NCBI GenBank assembly: GCA_002688505.1 | Contig: CP024013.1 | Span: forward strand, 120,001-152,000 | DNA: 32,000 bases | Direction of reading: 5' to 3' | From: Candidatus Saccharimonadota bacterium | Lineage (GTDB): Bacteria > Pseudomonadota > Gammaproteobacteria > Enterobacterales > Enterobacteriaceae | Part shown: in pieces, positions 11,810 to 30,397 of the stretch | Layout: every line of letters begins with the position of its first letter | How positions within the stretch are numbered: the stretch's first letter is position 1 | The notes under the pieces: model-generated | The model's input: only the letters and a program-made list of their open reading frames with translations | Databases searched by the model: none | Told to the model about the DNA's origin: nothing | Position numbers and translations under genes: made by a program

Positions 11810-13263
11810 TATATTATTTTATTATAATTTTTTATTCTATTTGTTAAAAATTTAATTAATAAGTAAACAGTTCTACCAGTAGCTCCATTTTTATTTCATG
11901 CAGTACCTGCTATATCAAAATGTGCTCATTTATATTTTTTTACAAAATTATTTAAAAAACAAGCTGCATTTATTGTATCTGAATAATTATTTTCACTACA
12001 ATTTTTTAAGTCCGCTATTTTAGATATTAAATATTTATTATATTTATTATATAATGGAAGTTCTCAAATATCATCATTTGATTGTTTACTTGCTTTTATT
12101 AATTCTTTTGATAAATTTTTATTATTAGTTATTAATGCACTAATGTTATTACCTAATGCAATTAAACAACATCCAGTTAATGTAGCTATATCTATTACTA
12201 TTTTAGGTTTATATTTATTTATATATGATAATGTATCACATAATAGTAATCTACCTTCAGCATCTGTATTAATAATTTCAACAGTTTTACCTGATAATGT
12301 TTTTATAATTTCTCCCGGTTTTGTAGATTTACTATCTATTATATTTTCTGCACATGATAATATAGCTATAATATTTAGTTTTAAATTTAGTTTATTTATT
12401 ATATACATTATTCCTCAAATAACAGCTGCTCCTGACATATCATATTTCATTTCATGCATATTATTTGAGTGTTTTAAAGATATACCTCCTGAATCAAATG
12501 TTATACCTTTTCCTATTAATATTATAGGTTTTTTAGATTTTGGGTTATTAAAATATTTTATTTTTATCATTTTAATTTTATTTTTAGATCCTCTATTAAC
12601 TGATAAATATGCATTCATACCTATTTTTTTCATTTTTTTTTTATTTAGATATGATATTTTAATATTTTTCCCATTTATATATTTTTTAGTTTTATTAAAA
12701 ATGTAATTAGAATTACATATATTAGGAGGTGTATTACATAAGTCTCTTGTTTTTTTTATTCCATTAGAAATTAATAAACTATTTTTAATAGATTGTTTAG
12801 ATTTATTTTTTTGTTTATATTTTATTTTGAAATATATTAATTTTTTTTTATTTTTTTTTTTTTTAGTTTTAAATTTTAAAAATTTATATGTTTCATATTC
12901 TATGATATTAATAAAATTAAATATTTTTCAATATATATTTTTGAATTTTATATTTTCTAAAAAAACTAAAATATTATTATAATATTTTTTTTTAATTATT
13001 TTAATAGTTTTAATTATTAATTTTTTAAAAATATTTTTATTAATTTTTTTATTATTAAATTTTATTAAATATATATTTTTGTTATTATTTAATATTTTAT
13101 TAATTTTTAATTTATTAAATAATTTTTTTTTAATTTTTGTTTTTTTTTTTTTTATTTTTTTATAATTTTTATTAAATTTATTATATTTATTATTTATAAA
13201 AATTATAATACAATCATATATTTTTATATTTTTATTTATATTATATTTTAATTTATATTTCAT
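11809..13263 (-). CDS. pepA: leucyl aminopeptidase (M17 family)
   Basis: Track ORFs 12928..13263, 12415..12633 and 12064..12408 share one frame and join through TGA codons. Motifs: TRDLCNTPPNICN, GKGITFDSGG, MKYDMSGAA, NTDAEGRL, WAHFDIAGTAW. Its TAA (11811-11809) overlaps the valS ATG (TAATG). Confidence 0.88.
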
Positions 13264-13775
13264 TTCTATTATTAATTAATTTATTATTATTTAATTTATT
13301 AATATAATTTTAATTATTATAATATAATATATTAATTTATATATTATTTAATTATATATAATTTTATTTTAAATTTAAAATATTTTTTTTTAAATAGAAT
13401 ATTTTGTTAATATTAAATTTTGTTTTAAAATTTATATTATTTGTAATATTAAATAAATATTAAAAGTTTAATTATATTAAATATAATTAATTATAATAAT
13501 TTTATGATATTAAAAAAATAATTTAAATATTTATTTTATATAAAATATAATATTTTAATATATATAATTAAATTATATATATAATATATTATAGAAAATT
13601 TTATAAAATTATATATAAAATTTATCTAAAATTAAATATATATAAAAAATTATAATAATTTAAAATAATAAATTAATAATTTTAATAAAATAATTATGTT
13701 TTATTAAATATTTTAATGTTAATTAAATTAATTTTTTATGTAAATATTTATAGAAATTTAAAATTTTATATAAAT

Positions 13776-13849
13776 CAGGGGTAGAAGGAATTGAACCCTC
13801 AACCTATGGTTTTGGAGACCATCGTTCTACCTAATTAAACTATACCCCT
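13776..13849 (-). tRNA. tRNA-Trp (anticodon CCA)
   Basis: The reverse complement is AGGGGTATAGTTTAATTAGGTAGAACGATGGTCTCCAAAACCATAGGTTGAGGGTTCAATTCCTTCTACCCCTG. It is orthologous in layout to E. coli tRNA-Trp. Anticodon loop CTCCAAA. D stem GTTT/GAAC, so position 24 is A. No encoded CCA. Confidence 0.92.
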
Positions 13850-13863
13850 AAATATATAATTAT

Positions 13864-14413: not shown

Positions 14414-16096
14414 ATGAAAACAAAAAAATATTTTTTATTTACTAAAAAAAATAATTTAAGTAATAAAAATAATATAATACATGAATTAATGATAAAAGGA
14501 GGGTTTATAAGAAAATTATGTTCAGGTATTTTTATATTATTACCAAATGCATTAAAAGTAATTAATAATATAGTTAATATTATTAAAAATGAAATGTTTA
14601 AGATAGGTGGTTTAGAAATTCAAATGCCTGTTATAACTCCTTTTAGTTTATGAAATAAAGGTGGTAGATTTTATAATTATGATAAAGAATTATATAAATT
14701 TTATGATAGAAATAATAAAATGTTTTTATTATCTCCTACTAATGAAGAAATAATTACTGAATTTTTTTTTAGAGAAAATTTATTATTAAGTGGTTATCCA
14801 TATATATTTTATCAATTTAATAATAAATTTAGAGATGAAATTAGAATTAAATCTAATTTAATAAGATGTAAAGAATTTATTATGAAAGATGCATATTCTT
14901 TTCATACAAATTTAAAATGTTTAGATAATACATATTTAAATATTTTAAATACATATTTAAATATTTTTAAAATTATTGGTTTAAATGTTTGTTATAAAAA
15001 AGCTAAATGTGGTAAAATAGGAGGTATTTTATCTCATGAATTTCATTTTATATCTAAATATGGAGAAAATAAATTAAATATTGATAAATTTAATTATTTA
15101 AATATTTTAAATTTAAAATTTAATAATTTTAATTTTAAAATGTTTAAAAAATTTAAATGTTTATATTTTAATATAAATAAAATTGATAAATTTATTATTA
15201 AAAATTTAAATAATTTTATTAGAACTTATATAATTAAAATATATTTAATTAATAAAAAAAATATTTTTATTATATTGTTAATAAATAATTATAAAAGTAT
15301 TGATTTAATTAAAATTAAAAATTTATATCCATTATCTAATAAAATTAAAATTTTAAATAAAAAATATATTTTTAAAAAATTTAAAATTTTAGATATTTTT
15401 TTAGGACCTTTTGGTTTAAATTATAGAATAATTGCTGATTGTTCTTTAATTAATTATATTAATTTTATTATAGGTTCAAATATAAACAATTATTTGTTTA
15501 TAAATGTTAATTGAAAAAAACATTTAAATATTGTTACATTTTTAGATATTAGTAAAAATTTTAGTTTATATATTAAGAAATTTAATAAAAATATAAATAT
15601 AATTAAAAAAAAATCAATTGAAGTGGCTCATATATTTAAATTATTAGATAAATATTCTTTAAATTATAAAAAAAATAATAATATTAATAAAATACTTATG
15701 GGATGTTATGGAATAGGTATTTATAGAATTTTTTTTAGTGTAATAGAACAATATTCTTATAATAACAAAATTATATTACCTTTATCTATTTCAAGTTTTA
15801 AATTAGGAATAATTCCTATTAATTTATATAATAATAAAAATGTTTATAATATTTCTTATAAAATTTACAAATTTTTAATTAAAAAAAAAATAGATGTTTT
15901 AATAGAAAATAGAAATATATATTTTGGTGAAATTTTAAATGATTTTGAATTAATTGGTATACCTAATTTTTTAATTATAAGTAATAATTTATTATTATTA
16001 AATATTTTAGAATTTAGAGATAGAATAAATAATTTAACTCAATTTATAAGAGTTAATGAAATATTTAATTTTTTATTTAGAAAATATAAAAATTAA
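14414..16096 (+). CDS. proS: proline--tRNA ligase
   Basis: Three track ORFs (14414.., 14720.., 15623..) are in one frame and joined by TGA at 14651-14653 and 15512-15514. Matches E. coli ProRS: HELMIKGGFIRKL, PFSLW (TGA at the E. coli Trp), FRDEIR, EFIMKDAYSFH, SHEFHF, IEVAHIFKL, GCYGIG. The ATG directly abuts the hinT stop. Confidence 0.9.
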
Positions 16097-16098
16097 GT

Positions 16099-17431
16099 TT
16101 ATTTTTTATATGTTTTAAATATTATGTTTCAATTATCATAATTCTTAGGATTTCCATTTTTTGTAATAAATATATTAGGACATAATATAGGTTTTTTATT
16201 ATAAAATATTATTGGTATAAATTTTCTTTTTCATGGTAATATTTTATATTGTTGTCAAATTTTTTTTATTTTTTTTTTTTTTTTACTGTTTAAAATTTTA
16301 ATTTTATCTTTTATTTGAAATTTTATATAAATTTTTTCTCATTTAAATGGTTTTCTAACTTTATTTATATTTTTATATTTGCTTATTTTTTTATTATTAA
16401 TATATAATAAACCAATTTTATTAGGTAAATTTATATAGTTTTTATTTTTTTTTCATAAAAATTTTTTCTTTTTTAATTCTTTAATTTTTTTATCTATAAA
16501 TAATTTATTTTTATATTTATATATTATAAATTTTTTAAAATGTATTTGAAAATATATTTTATATTTATTTTTTAAAATATTATATAATAATAAATTTGTT
16601 AATTTATATGAAATTATATTTTTATTATTTTTATATATAAATTTTCTTAAAATTATTATAATTTCTTCTTTATTTAATTTTATTAAATATTTAAAATTTA
16701 TATTATTATTATTTATATCTATACTTTTTTTTATTTTTTTTTTAATTAATTTATTAATTAATTCATATTGTTTTTTACATATATTTGAATTTCTTATAAC
16801 TGATTTTATAAAAAAAGGTCATTTTTTAATTATTAATGGTAAAATTACTAATCTTAAGTAATTTCTATCATAATTTATATCTTTATTACTTAAATCTTCT
16901 ATTCATTTAATATTATTTTTTAAAGCATATTTAATAATATATTTTTTTTCAATATTTAAAAATGGTCTTATAATAATAATTTTATTATTAATTTTTTTTT
17001 TTTTTTTTTATTCCTATTAATCCTTTTATACCGCAACCTCTTTTAAGTGATAAAAATATTGTTTCTATTTGATCATTTTTATGATGTGCGGTTAATAAAA
17101 TTTCATTTTTTTTTATATATTTTTTATAAATTTTATATCTTTTTATTCTTAATTTATGTTCTAAATTAGATTTATTTTTTATATATATATTTTTTTTTAT
17201 TAAATGTATTTTATTTATTTTACAAAATTTAATACATTTTTTTTCTCATTTTTTAGATATATATAAAATATTATGATTTATATGTATTGCTCTAATATTA
17301 ATATATTTTTTAAATTTATTTAAAGAATAAAGTAATACTGTTGAATCTACTCCTCCACTATATCCTACAAGAAAATTTTTATATTTATTAATTAAATTTT
17401 TTATAATATTTTCAATAAGTTCAATATACAT
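16099..17431 (-). CDS. tilS: tRNA(Ile)-lysidine synthase, interrupted by a frameshift inside an A18 run (slippage-rescued gene, pseudogene or homopolymer sequencing error)
   Basis: The N-terminal frame (from ATG 17431) has PP-loop SGGVDS and LLTAHHKNDQIETIFLSLKRGCGIKGL, then terminates just after the poly(A) run. The downstream part (IIIIRPFL.., WIEDLSN..NYDRNYLR, ..IWQQYKILPWKRKFIPIIFY) is open in a different frame from 17007 to TAA 16099-16101. Total length is 1333 nt (3n+1). Confidence 0.85.
16992..17009 (-). repeat. 18-nt homopolymer (T18 on plus strand, A18 on the tilS coding strand)
   Basis: Counted directly: an a followed by 9 t (16991-17000), then 9 t followed by an a (17001-17010). 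Confidence 0.95.
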
Positions 17432-18864: not shown

Positions 18865-19172
18865 TTTTTTAATTTATATATTTTTAATTGTTTTTTTATT
18901 ATATTTGATAATTTATCTAATGATTTTTGTTTTGGATGTTTTTTTTTAATCTCTCATGAAAGTTGATCTTCTGATAAATATATATGTATATGATGTCCAT
19001 TATTATCTTCTATAATTACATGATATCATGGTAATTTTTTATATTTTTTTTTTTTAATTTTATTTTTTTTATTTAAAGAATATATTGGATCAATATCTAT
19101 TATTACACCTAAAAATCCTAATAATTTGTGTCTTACTTGTTGTCCTATATTGAATTTACTATTAATTATCAT
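18861..19172 (-). CDS. hspQ: heat-shock protein HspQ (YccV, hemimethylated-DNA-binding domain)
   Basis: 103 aa with 2 TGA=Trp. [33 protein letters not shown]...[13 protein letters not shown] matches E. coli [32 protein letters not shown]...APWYHVVMEDDNG. Not present in the ORF track. Confidence 0.85.
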
Positions 19173-28582: not shown

Positions 28583-30397
28583 ATGAAAAAAAGTATTAAG
28601 TTAAAAATTATTTTATTAATTTCAGAAAATAAAAAAAAAGGTTATATAACATATTCTCAAATTAATGATAGGTTATCTTTTTTAAGTAAAATTAGTTCTT
28701 TACAATATAAAAAAATTATTAAAATAATAAATAATTTTGGTATTGCTGTTATAAAAGATAAAAATATAGATAGATTAATTTTTTGTAAAAAAAAAAATAT
28801 TATTTCTAATAATAATTGTTCAGATTTTTTAGATAATAATTTATTAAAATATGAAAATAATGTTAATAAGATTACAGATCCTGTTAGGATGTATATGAAA
28901 GAAATGGGTAATGTTGAATTATTAACCAGGGAAGGTGAAATTAAAATAGCTAAAAAAATTGAATATAGTATTAATAAGATTCAGTTTAATTTAGCCAAAT
29001 ATTTTAAGTCTATTAAATATTTTTTAGATCAATATAATTTAGTTAAACTTAATATTATTAAATTATCTGATTTAATAGTTGGATTTGTTGATTATAAATT
29101 TAATTATAATTTTATTTTTAATAAAAAATATAATGATTTTTATAAAGTAAAATATATTGATAATTTTAATAATACTAATAATATTAATAATTTTAAAAGA
29201 ATTATAAAAAATAAGTTTGATTATTTAAGTTATCAATATAATAATTTATTAAAATTTATTAATAAATATACAATAAATCATCCTTATTCTAAGTGTGAAC
29301 TAAATAAATTAATAAATATTTTTATGACATTTAAATTAGTTCCAAAACAATTAAATCATTTATTATTTAAAATTAAAAATATTTTTAATAAAATAAATTT
29401 AATTGAAAAAAAAATAATGTATTTATGTGTAAAAAAAAGTTTAATGCCTAAAGATATTTTTATATCTTTATTTTATAAATATAATTATAGTTTTAACTGA
29501 TTTTATAAAGCTATTAATATGAATAAATTTTGATCATTAAATTTATTAAAATTTAAAGATAAAATATTTAATAAAATTAATAATTTAATTATTATACAAG
29601 ATAAAATAGGTTTAAATATTTTAAAATTTAAGAAAATAAATATTAATATATTAAATAATGAAATTAAAACTAAAAATTCTAAAAGAGAAATGGTAGAAGC
29701 TAATTTAAGATTAGTAATTTCTATAGCTAAAAAATATACTAACAGAGGTTTACAATTTTTAGATTTAATTCAAGAAGGTAATATAGGTTTAATGAAAGCT
29801 GTTGATAAATTTGAATATAGAAGAGGATATAAATTTTCAACATATGCTACTTGATGAATACGTCAGGCTATTACTAGATCTATAGCTGATCAAGCTAGAA
29901 CAATAAGAATTCCTGTACATATGATAGAAACTATAAATAAATTAAATAGAATTTCTAGACAGTTATTACAAGAGATTGGTAGAGAACCTACTCCAGAAGA
30001 ATTATCAAATAAAATGTTAATGTCAGAGGATAAAATTAGAAAAATTTTAAAAATTTCTAAAGAACCAATATCTATGGAAACACCTATTGGTGAAGATGAA
30101 GATTTACATTTAGGTGATTTTATAGAAGATACATCTTTAGAATTGCCATTAGATTCTGCTACTACTGAAAGTTTGAAATCTGTTACTAATAATATTTTAT
30201 CTAGTTTAACTCCTAGAGAAGCTCAAGTTTTAAAAATGAGATTTGGTATTGATATGAATAGTGATCATACTTTAGAAGAAGTAGGTAAACAATTTGATGT
30301 TACTAGAGAACGTATTAGACAAATAGAAGCAAAAGCATTAAGAAAATTACGTCATCCTAGTAGATCTGAAATTTTACGTGGTTTTTTAGATGATTAA
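28583..30397 (+). CDS. rpoD: RNA polymerase sigma factor RpoD (sigma-70)
   Basis: Track ORFs 28538..29500 and 29921..30397 share the frame and join via 4 TGA, including tandem TGA TGA in TYATWWIRQ. ATG 28583 gives the same 19-residue spacing to GYITY as in E. coli. Regions 2-4 are almost identical to E. coli RpoD. Confidence 0.95.

What the first reader, a model, noticed from the sequence alone, without database searches (positions are those of the whole stretch)
16988..17011. tilS is frameshifted exactly inside an A18 run, a candidate for rescue by transcriptional slippage
**Seen in sequence.**
- The 5' part of tilS (PP-loop SGGVDS ... LKRGCGIKGLIGI) enters the poly(A) run. It reads KKKKKN and then TAA at 16990-16988.
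- The collinear continuation (INNKIIIIRPFLNIEKK ... WIEDLSN ... ILPWKRKFIPIIFY, stop at 16099) is open only in a different frame. That frame is itself closed by TAA at 17010-17008.
- The frame change must therefore occur within the 18 A residues (16992-17009).
- A17 or A20 would give one continuous ORF of about 443 aa.

**Established knowledge.** TilS makes lysidine on tRNA-Ile2, which is needed to read AUA. Transcriptional slippage on long poly(A) tracts is documented to rescue frameshifted genes in Buchnera and Blochmannia.

**Inference.** AUA is one of the commonest codons in every gene here, so a truly dead tilS would be hard to tolerate. The alternatives are slippage-dependent expression, a recent pseudogene compensated by another mechanism, or a homopolymer-length sequencing error.
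Basis: partly seen in the sequence, partly recalled or inferred. Interest (0 to 1): 0.78.

Follow-up and report, generated by a model that had tools for sequence, protein, structure and literature searches.

The report
Unstable poly(A) tract in symbiont tilS
In this tortoise-beetle gut symbiont (Candidatus Stammera capleta), the essential tRNA-modification gene tilS looks broken by one extra A in an 18-A run. An independent assembly of reads from the same strain has 17 A's and an intact gene, so this is an ordinary unstable homopolymer or a length miscall, not a dead gene or a new mechanism.

Summary
tilS (minus strand, 17431-16099) enters an A18 run at 17009-16992. The 5' frame stops at TAA 16990-16988, and the collinear 3' frame opens only after TAA 17010-17008. 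A17 or A20 gives a 443/444-aa TilS.

The window is a Candidatus Stammera capleta genome: 14.9% GC, code 4. Both halves are true TilS. The 3' part has no internal stop in 297 codons and dN/dS of 0.34-0.47, so it is not decaying. AUA is the fourth commonest codon.

The key result comes from Logan contigs assembled independently from SRA run SRR6147586. They match the window over 31,118 bases apart from two SNPs, one contig-end mismatch, and this tract. There they read A17, the in-frame length, and two contigs abut at the tract.

The frameshift is therefore best read as a +1 length variant of an in-frame A17 allele. It may be sequencing stutter or real replication slippage. It is not shown to be a fixed lesion that depends on slippage for rescue.

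Rescue by transcriptional slippage remains plausible for any A18 templates, but it is untested. It is also an already-known phenomenon (Buchnera, Blochmannia).

Two other Stammera genomes have tilS out of frame at a second poly(A) tract, so the pattern recurs. Interest is low to moderate.

The parts
16099..17431 (-). Whole tilS locus (tRNA(Ile)-lysidine synthetase). It is interrupted in this record and gives 443 aa if the run is A17.
   Evidence: The repaired protein matches PF01171 (178.7 bits), TilS_C (48.7), TIGR02432 (181.2, cut-off 93.6), and PRK10660 positions 7-435 of 439. It is 76-79% identical to intact Stammera TilS P0001-P0003. It matches E. coli TilS 1NI5 at E = 5.9e-50.
16988..17431 (-). 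5' reading frame (147 aa), with the PP-loop ATPase N-terminal part. It ends KKKKKN plus TAA.
   Evidence: On its own it scores 121.6 bits on TIGR02432.
17342..17359 (-). PP-loop motif SGGVDS (residues 25-30).
   Evidence: Read directly from the sequence.
16992..17009 (-). A18 homopolymer (T18 on the + strand). This is where the frame changes. It encodes the poly-Lys part of a variable loop.
   Evidence: Relatives have in-frame A10-A16 at the homologous site. Logan contig L012 has A17. The loop varies in length among TilS structures.
16988..16990 (-). TAA that ends the 5' frame, two bases after the run.
17008..17010 (-). TAA (T plus the first two A's of the run) that closes the 3' frame upstream. 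This confines the frame change to the run.
16099..17007 (-). 3' reading frame: 302 codons plus stop. It holds the end of the PP-loop domain, the central domain and TilS_C.
   Evidence: PF01171 positions 133-180 and TilS_C. PRK10660 positions 153-435, E = 8.3e-55. No internal stops in 297 codons, against 40 and 53 in the other frames. No in-frame ATG, GTG or TTG.
16269..16284 (-). Second long tract (A16), in frame here. The same tract is out of frame in two other Stammera genomes.
   Evidence: L009 (CP145599.1) has A18 and L010 (CP062308.1) has A17 at this site. In both, the downstream frame stays intact.

Best explanation
tilS in this Candidatus Stammera capleta strain is a live, selected gene. 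It carries a very long, unstable poly(A) tract in the coding sequence of an indel-tolerant surface loop. The in-frame length is A17.

The A18 in this record is a +1 length variant of that allele. It arose either as a homopolymer-length call from PCR-library short reads, or as a real replication-slippage variant carried by some genome copies or host populations. The strain is therefore not shown to depend on a fixed frameshift.

**Shown.**
- The frame geometry.
- TilS identity of both halves.
- Intactness of the 3' part and purifying selection on it.
- Existence of reads with exactly A17 from the same strain.
- Concordance of all other homopolymers between the two assemblies.

**Inferred.**
- Templates with A18 would still yield some in-frame mRNA (A17, A20) through RNA-polymerase slippage. 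On runs this long, slippage is expected to be frequent whatever the DNA length.
- Products with 4-7 lysines in the loop would be functional.
For: - **Independent in-frame allele.** Logan contigs of SRR6147586 cover 31,118 of the 32,000 window bases. They differ only by two A/G SNPs, one contig-end mismatch and this tract, which reads A17. Merging L012 and L013 through their 30-nt overlap gives an uninterrupted 443-aa TilS.
- **A17 was seen in reads.** Logan uses 31-mers seen at least twice (PMC12424806). The k-mer T-A17-TTAATAATAAAAT therefore occurred in at least two reads. The contigs abut at the tract, which implies a graph branch there and so mixed tract lengths in the reads.
- **A one-off discordance.** Of 27 runs of 10 nt or more compared, only this one, the longest, differs in length.
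- **A17 is the expected length.** The closest relatives encode the same GIKKKKKINNK. ATA + 5xAAA + A of ATT gives A17. Relatives carry A10-A16 in frame.
- **No decay.** The 3' part has 0 internal stops in 297 codons. Its dN/dS is 0.34-0.47, against 0.28-0.33 among intact relatives.
- **The gene is needed.** AUA makes up 75.6 of every 1000 codons, and about 37 related genomes keep a full-length TilS.
- **Library type.** The Stammera genomes of that study were assembled with MEGAHIT from PCR-amplified Illumina PE150 libraries (10.1101/2023.12.12.571295). I could not establish how this record was sequenced.
- **Indel-tolerant loop.** Aquifex TilS has a 5-residue gap at this position, and Stammera relatives differ by one residue.
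Against: - I could not establish whether SRR6147586 is genomic or transcriptomic. If it is RNA-seq, A17 would be a slipped transcript and would support obligate slippage instead.
- The two SNPs show that the window was not simply built from that consensus. A18 could therefore be the true, fixed state in the window's own sample.
- All three frame breaks seen in Stammera tilS are expansions (+1, +2, +1). From general knowledge, PCR stutter tends to contract runs, so this hints at real mutations rather than miscalls.
- I could not see read counts, so I cannot say whether A17 or A18 is the majority.
Confidence: 0.68

Rival explanations
1. A18 is the true, fixed genomic state in this strain. Full-length TilS is made only because RNA polymerase slips on the tract, losing one A or gaining two, possibly helped by ribosomes sliding on poly(A).
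For: - The record itself reads A18.
- The rest of the gene is intact and under purifying selection, as in the documented Buchnera and Blochmannia cases.
- Two other Stammera genomes have tilS out of frame at another long tract, with intact downstream frames.
- In ~130 kb of Stammera loci, all three runs of A17 or longer are out of frame, while every run of A16 or shorter inside a gene is in frame.
- Transcriptional insertions rise exponentially with A/T run length in Buchnera and E. coli (PMC5574713). Runs of 9 A/T can add up to 6 nt (PMC5009743).
- If SRR6147586 is RNA-seq, its A17 would be direct evidence for this reading.
Against: - An independent assembly of the same strain has the in-frame A17.
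- The frameshift is not shared by any relative at this site.
- No RNA or protein data exist.
- Traverse and Ochman found no transcript-level restoration of frameshifted Buchnera pseudogenes in their genome-wide data (PMC5574713).
Confidence: 0.22
2. tilS is a very recent true pseudogene. AUA is read by another route, such as a tRNA-Ile(UAU) or a host-supplied factor.
For: As written, the record encodes only a 147-aa fragment cut in the middle of the ATPase domain. No tRNA-Ile(CAU) was found in the ~45 kb I could inspect.
Against: - There is no second lesion: 0 stops in 297 codons, where random frames carry 40-53.
- dN/dS is far below 1.
- About 37 Stammera genomes retain tilS.
- AUA is the fourth commonest codon.
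- No tRNA-Ile(UAU) was seen in any locus, only GAU.
- The in-frame allele exists.
Confidence: 0.04
3. This is a programmed +1/-2 ribosomal frameshift site, or a split gene whose two polypeptides assemble.
For: Poly(A) is intrinsically slippery for ribosomes (established knowledge: ribosome sliding on consecutive AAA codons).
Against: - There is no stimulatory RNA structure downstream: MFE -6.8 kcal/mol, z = +1.27.
- The out-of-frame arrangement is not conserved in any relative.
- The 3' part has no in-frame ATG, GTG or TTG in 302 codons, and the break falls inside the PP-loop domain at profile position 134 of 182.
Confidence: 0.04

Closest known systems
Poly(A)-tract frameshifts in Buchnera aphidicola and Blochmannia genes, rescued by transcriptional slippage (Tamas et al. 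2008, as cited in PMC10540940, PMC4350177 and PMC5009743)
   Same: An AT-rich, genome-reduced insect symbiont. A single-base frame disruption lies exactly inside a long sense-strand poly(A) run in an otherwise intact housekeeping gene. Sense-strand poly(A) runs are strongly over-represented (47 against 6).
   Different: The tract here is much longer: A17-18, against about A9-A12. The genomic frameshift is contradicted by an independent assembly that gives the in-frame length. No cDNA evidence is available.
Ancient conserved homopolymer frameshifts in Blochmannia (Wernegreen et al. 2010, recalled from memory)
   Same: A frameshift in a homopolymer of a gene that stays under purifying selection.
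   Different: Those frameshifts are shared across species. Here every relative is in frame at this site. The out-of-frame states in other strains lie at a different tract and look independent and recent.
Poly(A/T) frameshifted CDSs in Candidatus Providencia siddallii and Candidatus Pantoea carbekii (PMC10540940; PMC4350177)
   Same: Routine annotation-level observations of frameshifts in A/T runs of symbiont genes, with slippage offered as a possible rescue.
   Different: Those involve other genes (asnB and argI in P. carbekii) and shorter runs (A8-A9 in P. carbekii). tilS is not among them.
Thermus thermophilus dnaX A9 transcriptional slippage (PMC5009743)
   Same: RNA polymerase adds or omits A's on an A run, giving products in alternative frames.
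   Different: That slippage is programmed and conserved, and makes two useful proteins from an in-frame gene. Nothing here suggests a second useful product.
Homopolymer contingency loci (phase variation) in pathogens
   Same: An in-ORF mononucleotide run whose length varies and switches the frame.
   Different: Those genes are dispensable surface or restriction functions switched adaptively. tilS is a housekeeping gene needed to read a very common codon.

Membership tests
TilS, tRNA(Ile)-lysidine synthetase | N-terminal PP-loop ATPase domain with an SGGxDS motif | tested here: met
   SGGVDS at 17359-17342. PF01171 scores 178.7 bits (cut-off 27). TIGR02432 scores 181.2 bits (cut-off 93.6) on the repaired protein and 121.6 on the N part alone.
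TilS, tRNA(Ile)-lysidine synthetase | TilS-specific C-terminal substrate-binding domain | tested here: met
   PF11734 scores 48.7-49.6 bits (cut-off 22). TIGR02433 scores 38.7-39.5 bits (cut-off 20.2).
TilS, tRNA(Ile)-lysidine synthetase | Full-length equivalog score (NCBIfam PRK10660, cut-off 606 bits) | tested here: not met
   308.4 bits over positions 7-435 of 439. Coverage is complete and the low score reflects extreme AT-driven divergence. Intact Stammera orthologues are 76-79% identical.
TilS, tRNA(Ile)-lysidine synthetase | One uninterrupted ORF | tested here: inconclusive
   Interrupted in the window (A18). Uninterrupted, at 443 aa, in Logan contigs of SRR6147586 (A17).
TilS, tRNA(Ile)-lysidine synthetase | Substrate tRNA-Ile2 (anticodon CAU) present in the genome; lysidine formed | not testable with these tools
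   Only about 45 kb of this strain was available. It holds tRNA-Ile(GAU) and one CAU tRNA that resembles elongator tRNA-Met.
Poly(A) frameshift rescued by transcriptional slippage (Tamas 2008 class) | Frame disruption lies within an A/T homopolymer of about 9 or more | tested here: met
   A18. Stops in both frames confine the shift to the run.
Poly(A) frameshift rescued by transcriptional slippage (Tamas 2008 class) | Rest of the gene intact and under purifying selection | tested here: met
   0 internal stops in 297 codons. dN/dS 0.20-0.26 in the N part and 0.34-0.47 in the C part.
Poly(A) frameshift rescued by transcriptional slippage (Tamas 2008 class) | The frameshift is a verified property of the genomic DNA | tested here: inconclusive
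   An independent assembly gives the in-frame A17. The library type of SRR6147586 is unknown.
Poly(A) frameshift rescued by transcriptional slippage (Tamas 2008 class) | mRNA population contains frame-restoring run lengths; full-length protein is made | not testable with these tools
   No RNA reads or proteomics were accessible.
Programmed ribosomal frameshifting | Shift site with a stimulatory element, conserved out-of-frame arrangement in relatives | tested here: not met
   No structure downstream (z = +1.27). All 8 relatives are in frame at this site.
Phase-variable contingency locus | Length-polymorphic in-ORF repeat in a dispensable, environmentally selected gene | tested here: not met
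   Length heterogeneity is likely. However, the gene is a conserved housekeeping enzyme kept in about 37 strains.

The most novel reading that the evidence does not exclude
The two very long poly(A) tracts of Stammera tilS are effectively frame-agnostic. Beyond about A16, RNA-polymerase slippage would be so pervasive that roughly the same share of transcripts is in frame whatever the DNA length. The DNA frame would then drift freely between strains; at least 3 of the ~40 Stammera tilS genes seen here are out of frame, always at runs of A17 or longer. Under this reading, an essential decoding enzyme is routinely made through transcriptional infidelity, and the tracts act as a built-in throttle that keeps TilS at low level.
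Probability: 0.2. Interest if true: 0.55.

Novelty: new member of a known kind. Interest (0 to 1): 0.27.

Why it matters
If the A18 were fixed, an enzyme needed to read about 7.6% of all codons would depend wholly on polymerase slippage. That would be a strong example of expression by infidelity in a minimal genome.

The evidence points instead to an unstable or miscalled homopolymer with an in-frame allele present. The practical lesson concerns annotation. Runs of A17 or longer in these 15% GC symbiont genomes cannot be length-called reliably from short reads. Pseudogene calls at such tracts, here and in CP145599.1 and CP062308.1, should not be read as gene loss.

The recurrence at two tracts of the same gene is a modest lead for anyone studying slippage in symbionts.

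Tried and rejected
- **Window's own record.** I looked up the 147-aa N fragment to find it. I got round this with TGA-free window proteins: L25, HIT, MnmG, S21 and RRF. Only Logan contigs of SRR6147586 came back, never the source record.
- **Nature of SRR6147586.** No paper in the library mentions it. The Cell 2017 and Curr Biol 2020 Stammera papers are not held. The supplement of 10.1101/2023.12.12.571295 does not list it.
- **Split gene.** Rejected, because the 3' part has no in-frame start codon.
- **Programmed ribosomal frameshift.** Rejected, because there is no downstream structure and no conservation.
- **tRNA-Ile2(CAU) or tRNA-Ile(UAU).** None found in the window, in 9 related loci or in the extra Logan contigs. 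The one CAU tRNA is metT-like.
- **Truncated relative P0040 (312 aa).** I first suspected another poly(A) frameshift. It is a genuine loss of the C-terminal domain, with proS following directly.
- **A13-A14 frame breaks.** Those flagged by my automated survey are threshold artefacts near gene ends, not frameshifts.
- **Literature.** I found no prior description of poly(A) frameshifts or slippage in Stammera.

Full report
**1. What is in the sequence**

The window is 14.9% GC. TGA is read as a sense codon: 65 in-frame TGA against 3 TGG across 26 genes.

On the minus strand, a tilS reading frame starts at ATG 17431 and carries the PP-loop motif SGGVDS at 17359-17342. It enters a run of 18 A's at 17009-16992, reads KKKKKN and stops at TAA 16990-16988.

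The collinear continuation (KKKKKINNKIIIIRPFLNIEKK...NIIFKTYKK, stop at 16101-16099) is open in the frame displaced by one base. That frame is closed upstream by TAA 17010-17008. The frame change can therefore lie only inside the run.

Run lengths of A14, A17, A20 and A23 give full-length products of 442-445 aa. All other lengths terminate after 145-155 aa.

**2. Both halves are one TilS**

- The N part matches the PP-loop family PF01171 over profile positions 2-134.
- The C part continues at positions 133-180 and ends with the TilS_C domain.
- The repaired protein covers positions 7-435 of 439 of the enterobacterial TilS model PRK10660.
- It aligns end to end with E. coli TilS, PDB 1NI5, at E = 5.9e-50.

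**3. Organism and relatives**

A scan of species-representative genomes and a protein search place the window in Candidatus Stammera capleta. This is the extracellular pectinolytic symbiont of tortoise beetles.

About 37 related genomes, with chromosomes of 212-325 kb, encode full-length TilS of 429-447 aa. The closest are 76-79% identical.

Code 4 together with an unchanged tRNA-Trp(CCA) is already published for Stammera (PMC10540940).

**4. The gene is not decaying**

- The 3' part has no internal stop in 297 codons. The other two frames of the same DNA have 40 and 53.
- dN/dS against the three closest relatives is 0.20-0.26 upstream of the tract and 0.34-0.47 downstream. Among the intact relatives themselves the values are 0.13-0.23 and 0.28-0.33.
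- AUA is the fourth commonest codon: 75.6 per 1000, half of all Ile codons, and 51 in tilS itself. TilS function is therefore expected to be needed.

**5. The tract is a conserved, growing homopolymer in a variable loop**

At the homologous site, eight relatives carry A10, A10, A10, A11, A12, A12, A14 and A16, all in frame. The closest relatives encode the same peptide, GIKKKKKINNK. With this window's flanking codons (ATA...ATT), that peptide requires A17. The record therefore differs from expectation by one extra A.

In solved structures this segment is a loop of variable length. E. coli has GLSAMAEVSEFAGT-RLIRP, Aquifex TilS has a 5-residue gap, and Stammera relatives differ by one residue. 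One lysine more or fewer should be tolerated; this is an inference.

Long sense-strand poly(A) runs are strongly enriched in the window:
- 5 runs of 14 or more, against 0.54 expected;
- 47 sense-A against 6 sense-T runs of 9 or more.

**6. The decisive comparison**

Looking up TGA-free window proteins returned five contigs assembled independently by the Logan project from SRA run SRR6147586. Together they cover 31,118 of the 32,000 window bases.

They are identical to the window except at four places:
- two A/G SNPs, at 15849 and 31702;
- one mismatch at a contig end, at 13139;
- the tilS tract, which reads A17.

All other 26 homopolymers of 10 nt or more agree in length. These include the A16 tracts in valS and in tilS itself.

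Contigs L012 and L013 end at the tract and overlap by exactly 30 nt (A17 + TTAATAATAAAAT). Merging them gives an uninterrupted 443-aa TilS.

Logan builds 31-mer graphs, discards k-mers seen only once, and simplifies with Minia3 (PMC12424806). Two things follow:
- The 31-mers that contain a whole A17 with both flanks were present in at least two reads.
- The unmerged k-1 junction means a branch at the tract, so reads with other lengths also exist (inference).

The Stammera genomes of the main comparative study were assembled with MEGAHIT from PCR-amplified Illumina 2x150 libraries (10.1101/2023.12.12.571295). From general knowledge, an A17-18 run cannot be length-called confidently under those conditions. 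I could not establish how this particular record was sequenced.

**7. What I could not settle**

I could not find out whether SRR6147586 is DNA or RNA. The contigs run through divergent intergenic regions and tRNA clusters and break almost only at homopolymers. That pattern looks like genomic coverage, but it is not proof.

The two SNPs show that the window was not simply built from that consensus. The A17/A18 difference may therefore be a real difference between samples. I also had no read counts.

**8. Recurrence in other strains**

Two other Stammera genomes have tilS out of frame at the second long tract, which is in frame (A16) in this window at 16269-16284. CP145599.1 has A18 and CP062308.1 has A17. 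In both, the downstream frame is intact.

In about 130 kb of Stammera sequence:
- all three runs of A17 or longer are frame breaks, and all three lie in tilS;
- every run of A16 or shorter inside a gene reads through, including seven A16 runs.

All three breaks are expansions. This fits either length-dependent miscalling or real length-dependent instability that is tolerated because slippage blurs the frame.

A third short relative, CP144785.1 (312 aa), has truly lost the C-terminal domain.

**9. Mechanism and rivals**

| Explanation | Probability |
|---|---|
| Live gene with a hypervariable A17-class tract; A18 is a +1 variant, technical or real, and the in-frame allele is present | about 0.68 |
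| Fixed A18 with obligate rescue by transcriptional slippage | about 0.22 |
| True recent pseudogene | about 0.04 |
| Programmed ribosomal frameshifting or a split gene | about 0.04 |

Slippage on A/T runs is well documented and rises exponentially with run length (PMC5574713; PMC5009743). Nothing here tests it, however, and the frameshift is not conserved.

The pseudogene reading is contradicted by the lack of any other lesion.

Ribosomal frameshifting and the split gene are rejected for three reasons:
- there is no downstream structure (z = +1.27);
- the out-of-frame state is not conserved;
- there is no start codon anywhere in the 302-codon 3' part.

**10. Novelty and verdict**

Frameshifts inside poly(A) runs of symbiont genes, with slippage as a proposed rescue, are a known and routinely reported kind (Tamas et al. 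2008, as cited). I found no earlier mention of this for Stammera or for tilS.

At most this is a new member of a known kind, and the specific frameshift is contradicted by independent data. Interest is 0.27.

The most novel reading still open is frame-agnostic tracts that make TilS expression routinely dependent on transcriptional infidelity. I give it about 0.2 probability.

Noticed in passing
L009 4129-4146 (CP145599.1) and L010 4120-4136 (CP062308.1); homologous to window 16269-16284: Two other Stammera genomes have tilS out of frame at a second poly(A) tract: A18 and A17, against the in-frame A16 here. In both, the downstream frame is intact. In ~130 kb surveyed, all runs of A17 or longer are frame breaks and all are in tilS.
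   Followed up: yes
L011 3001-3939 (CP144785.1): In this Stammera strain TilS is only 312 aa and lacks the C-terminal domain. proS follows directly on the other strand. This resembles the short TilS of Annandia and Vidania seen.
   Followed up: partly
window 15849 and 31702: Two A/G differences between the window and the Logan contigs of SRR6147586. Position 15849 changes proS codon AAT (Asn) to AGT (Ser). The two assemblies therefore represent slightly different consensus sequences or samples of one strain.
   Followed up: partly
window ~29764-29791 (rpoD): Logan contigs L015 and L016 break inside rpoD at a place that is not a homopolymer. This hints at a polymorphic site within the SRR6147586 sample.
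   Followed up: no
window 13775-13850 (tRNA-Trp, anticodon CCA); whole window: TGA is the normal Trp codon (65 TGA against 3 TGG in 26 genes), yet tRNA-Trp keeps anticodon CCA. This is already described for Stammera and Zinderia (PMC10540940).
   Followed up: yes
whole window: Homopolymer runs of 9 or more inside genes are almost always poly(A) on the sense strand (47 against 6 poly(T)). Sense-strand A and T contents are far more balanced (13,419 against 11,494). The bias reflects AAA (Lys) at 132 per 1000 codons.
   Followed up: partly
L016 10893-11157 (about 9.7 kb beyond the window's 3' end, same strain): A tRNA cluster Leu(UAG)-Gln(UUG)-CAU lies upstream of miaB. The CAU tRNA resembles E. 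coli elongator tRNA-Met (62 of 74 identical to a from-memory metT sequence), not tRNA-Ile2. The TilS substrate gene was not found in the ~45 kb available.
   Followed up: partly
window 13134-13153 (pepA): Logan contig L013 begins with T20 where the window has TTTTTG + T14. Logan contigs also end at the runs at 12851-12864 and 19044-19055. Short-read graphs of this genome fragment at homopolymers in general.
   Followed up: partly
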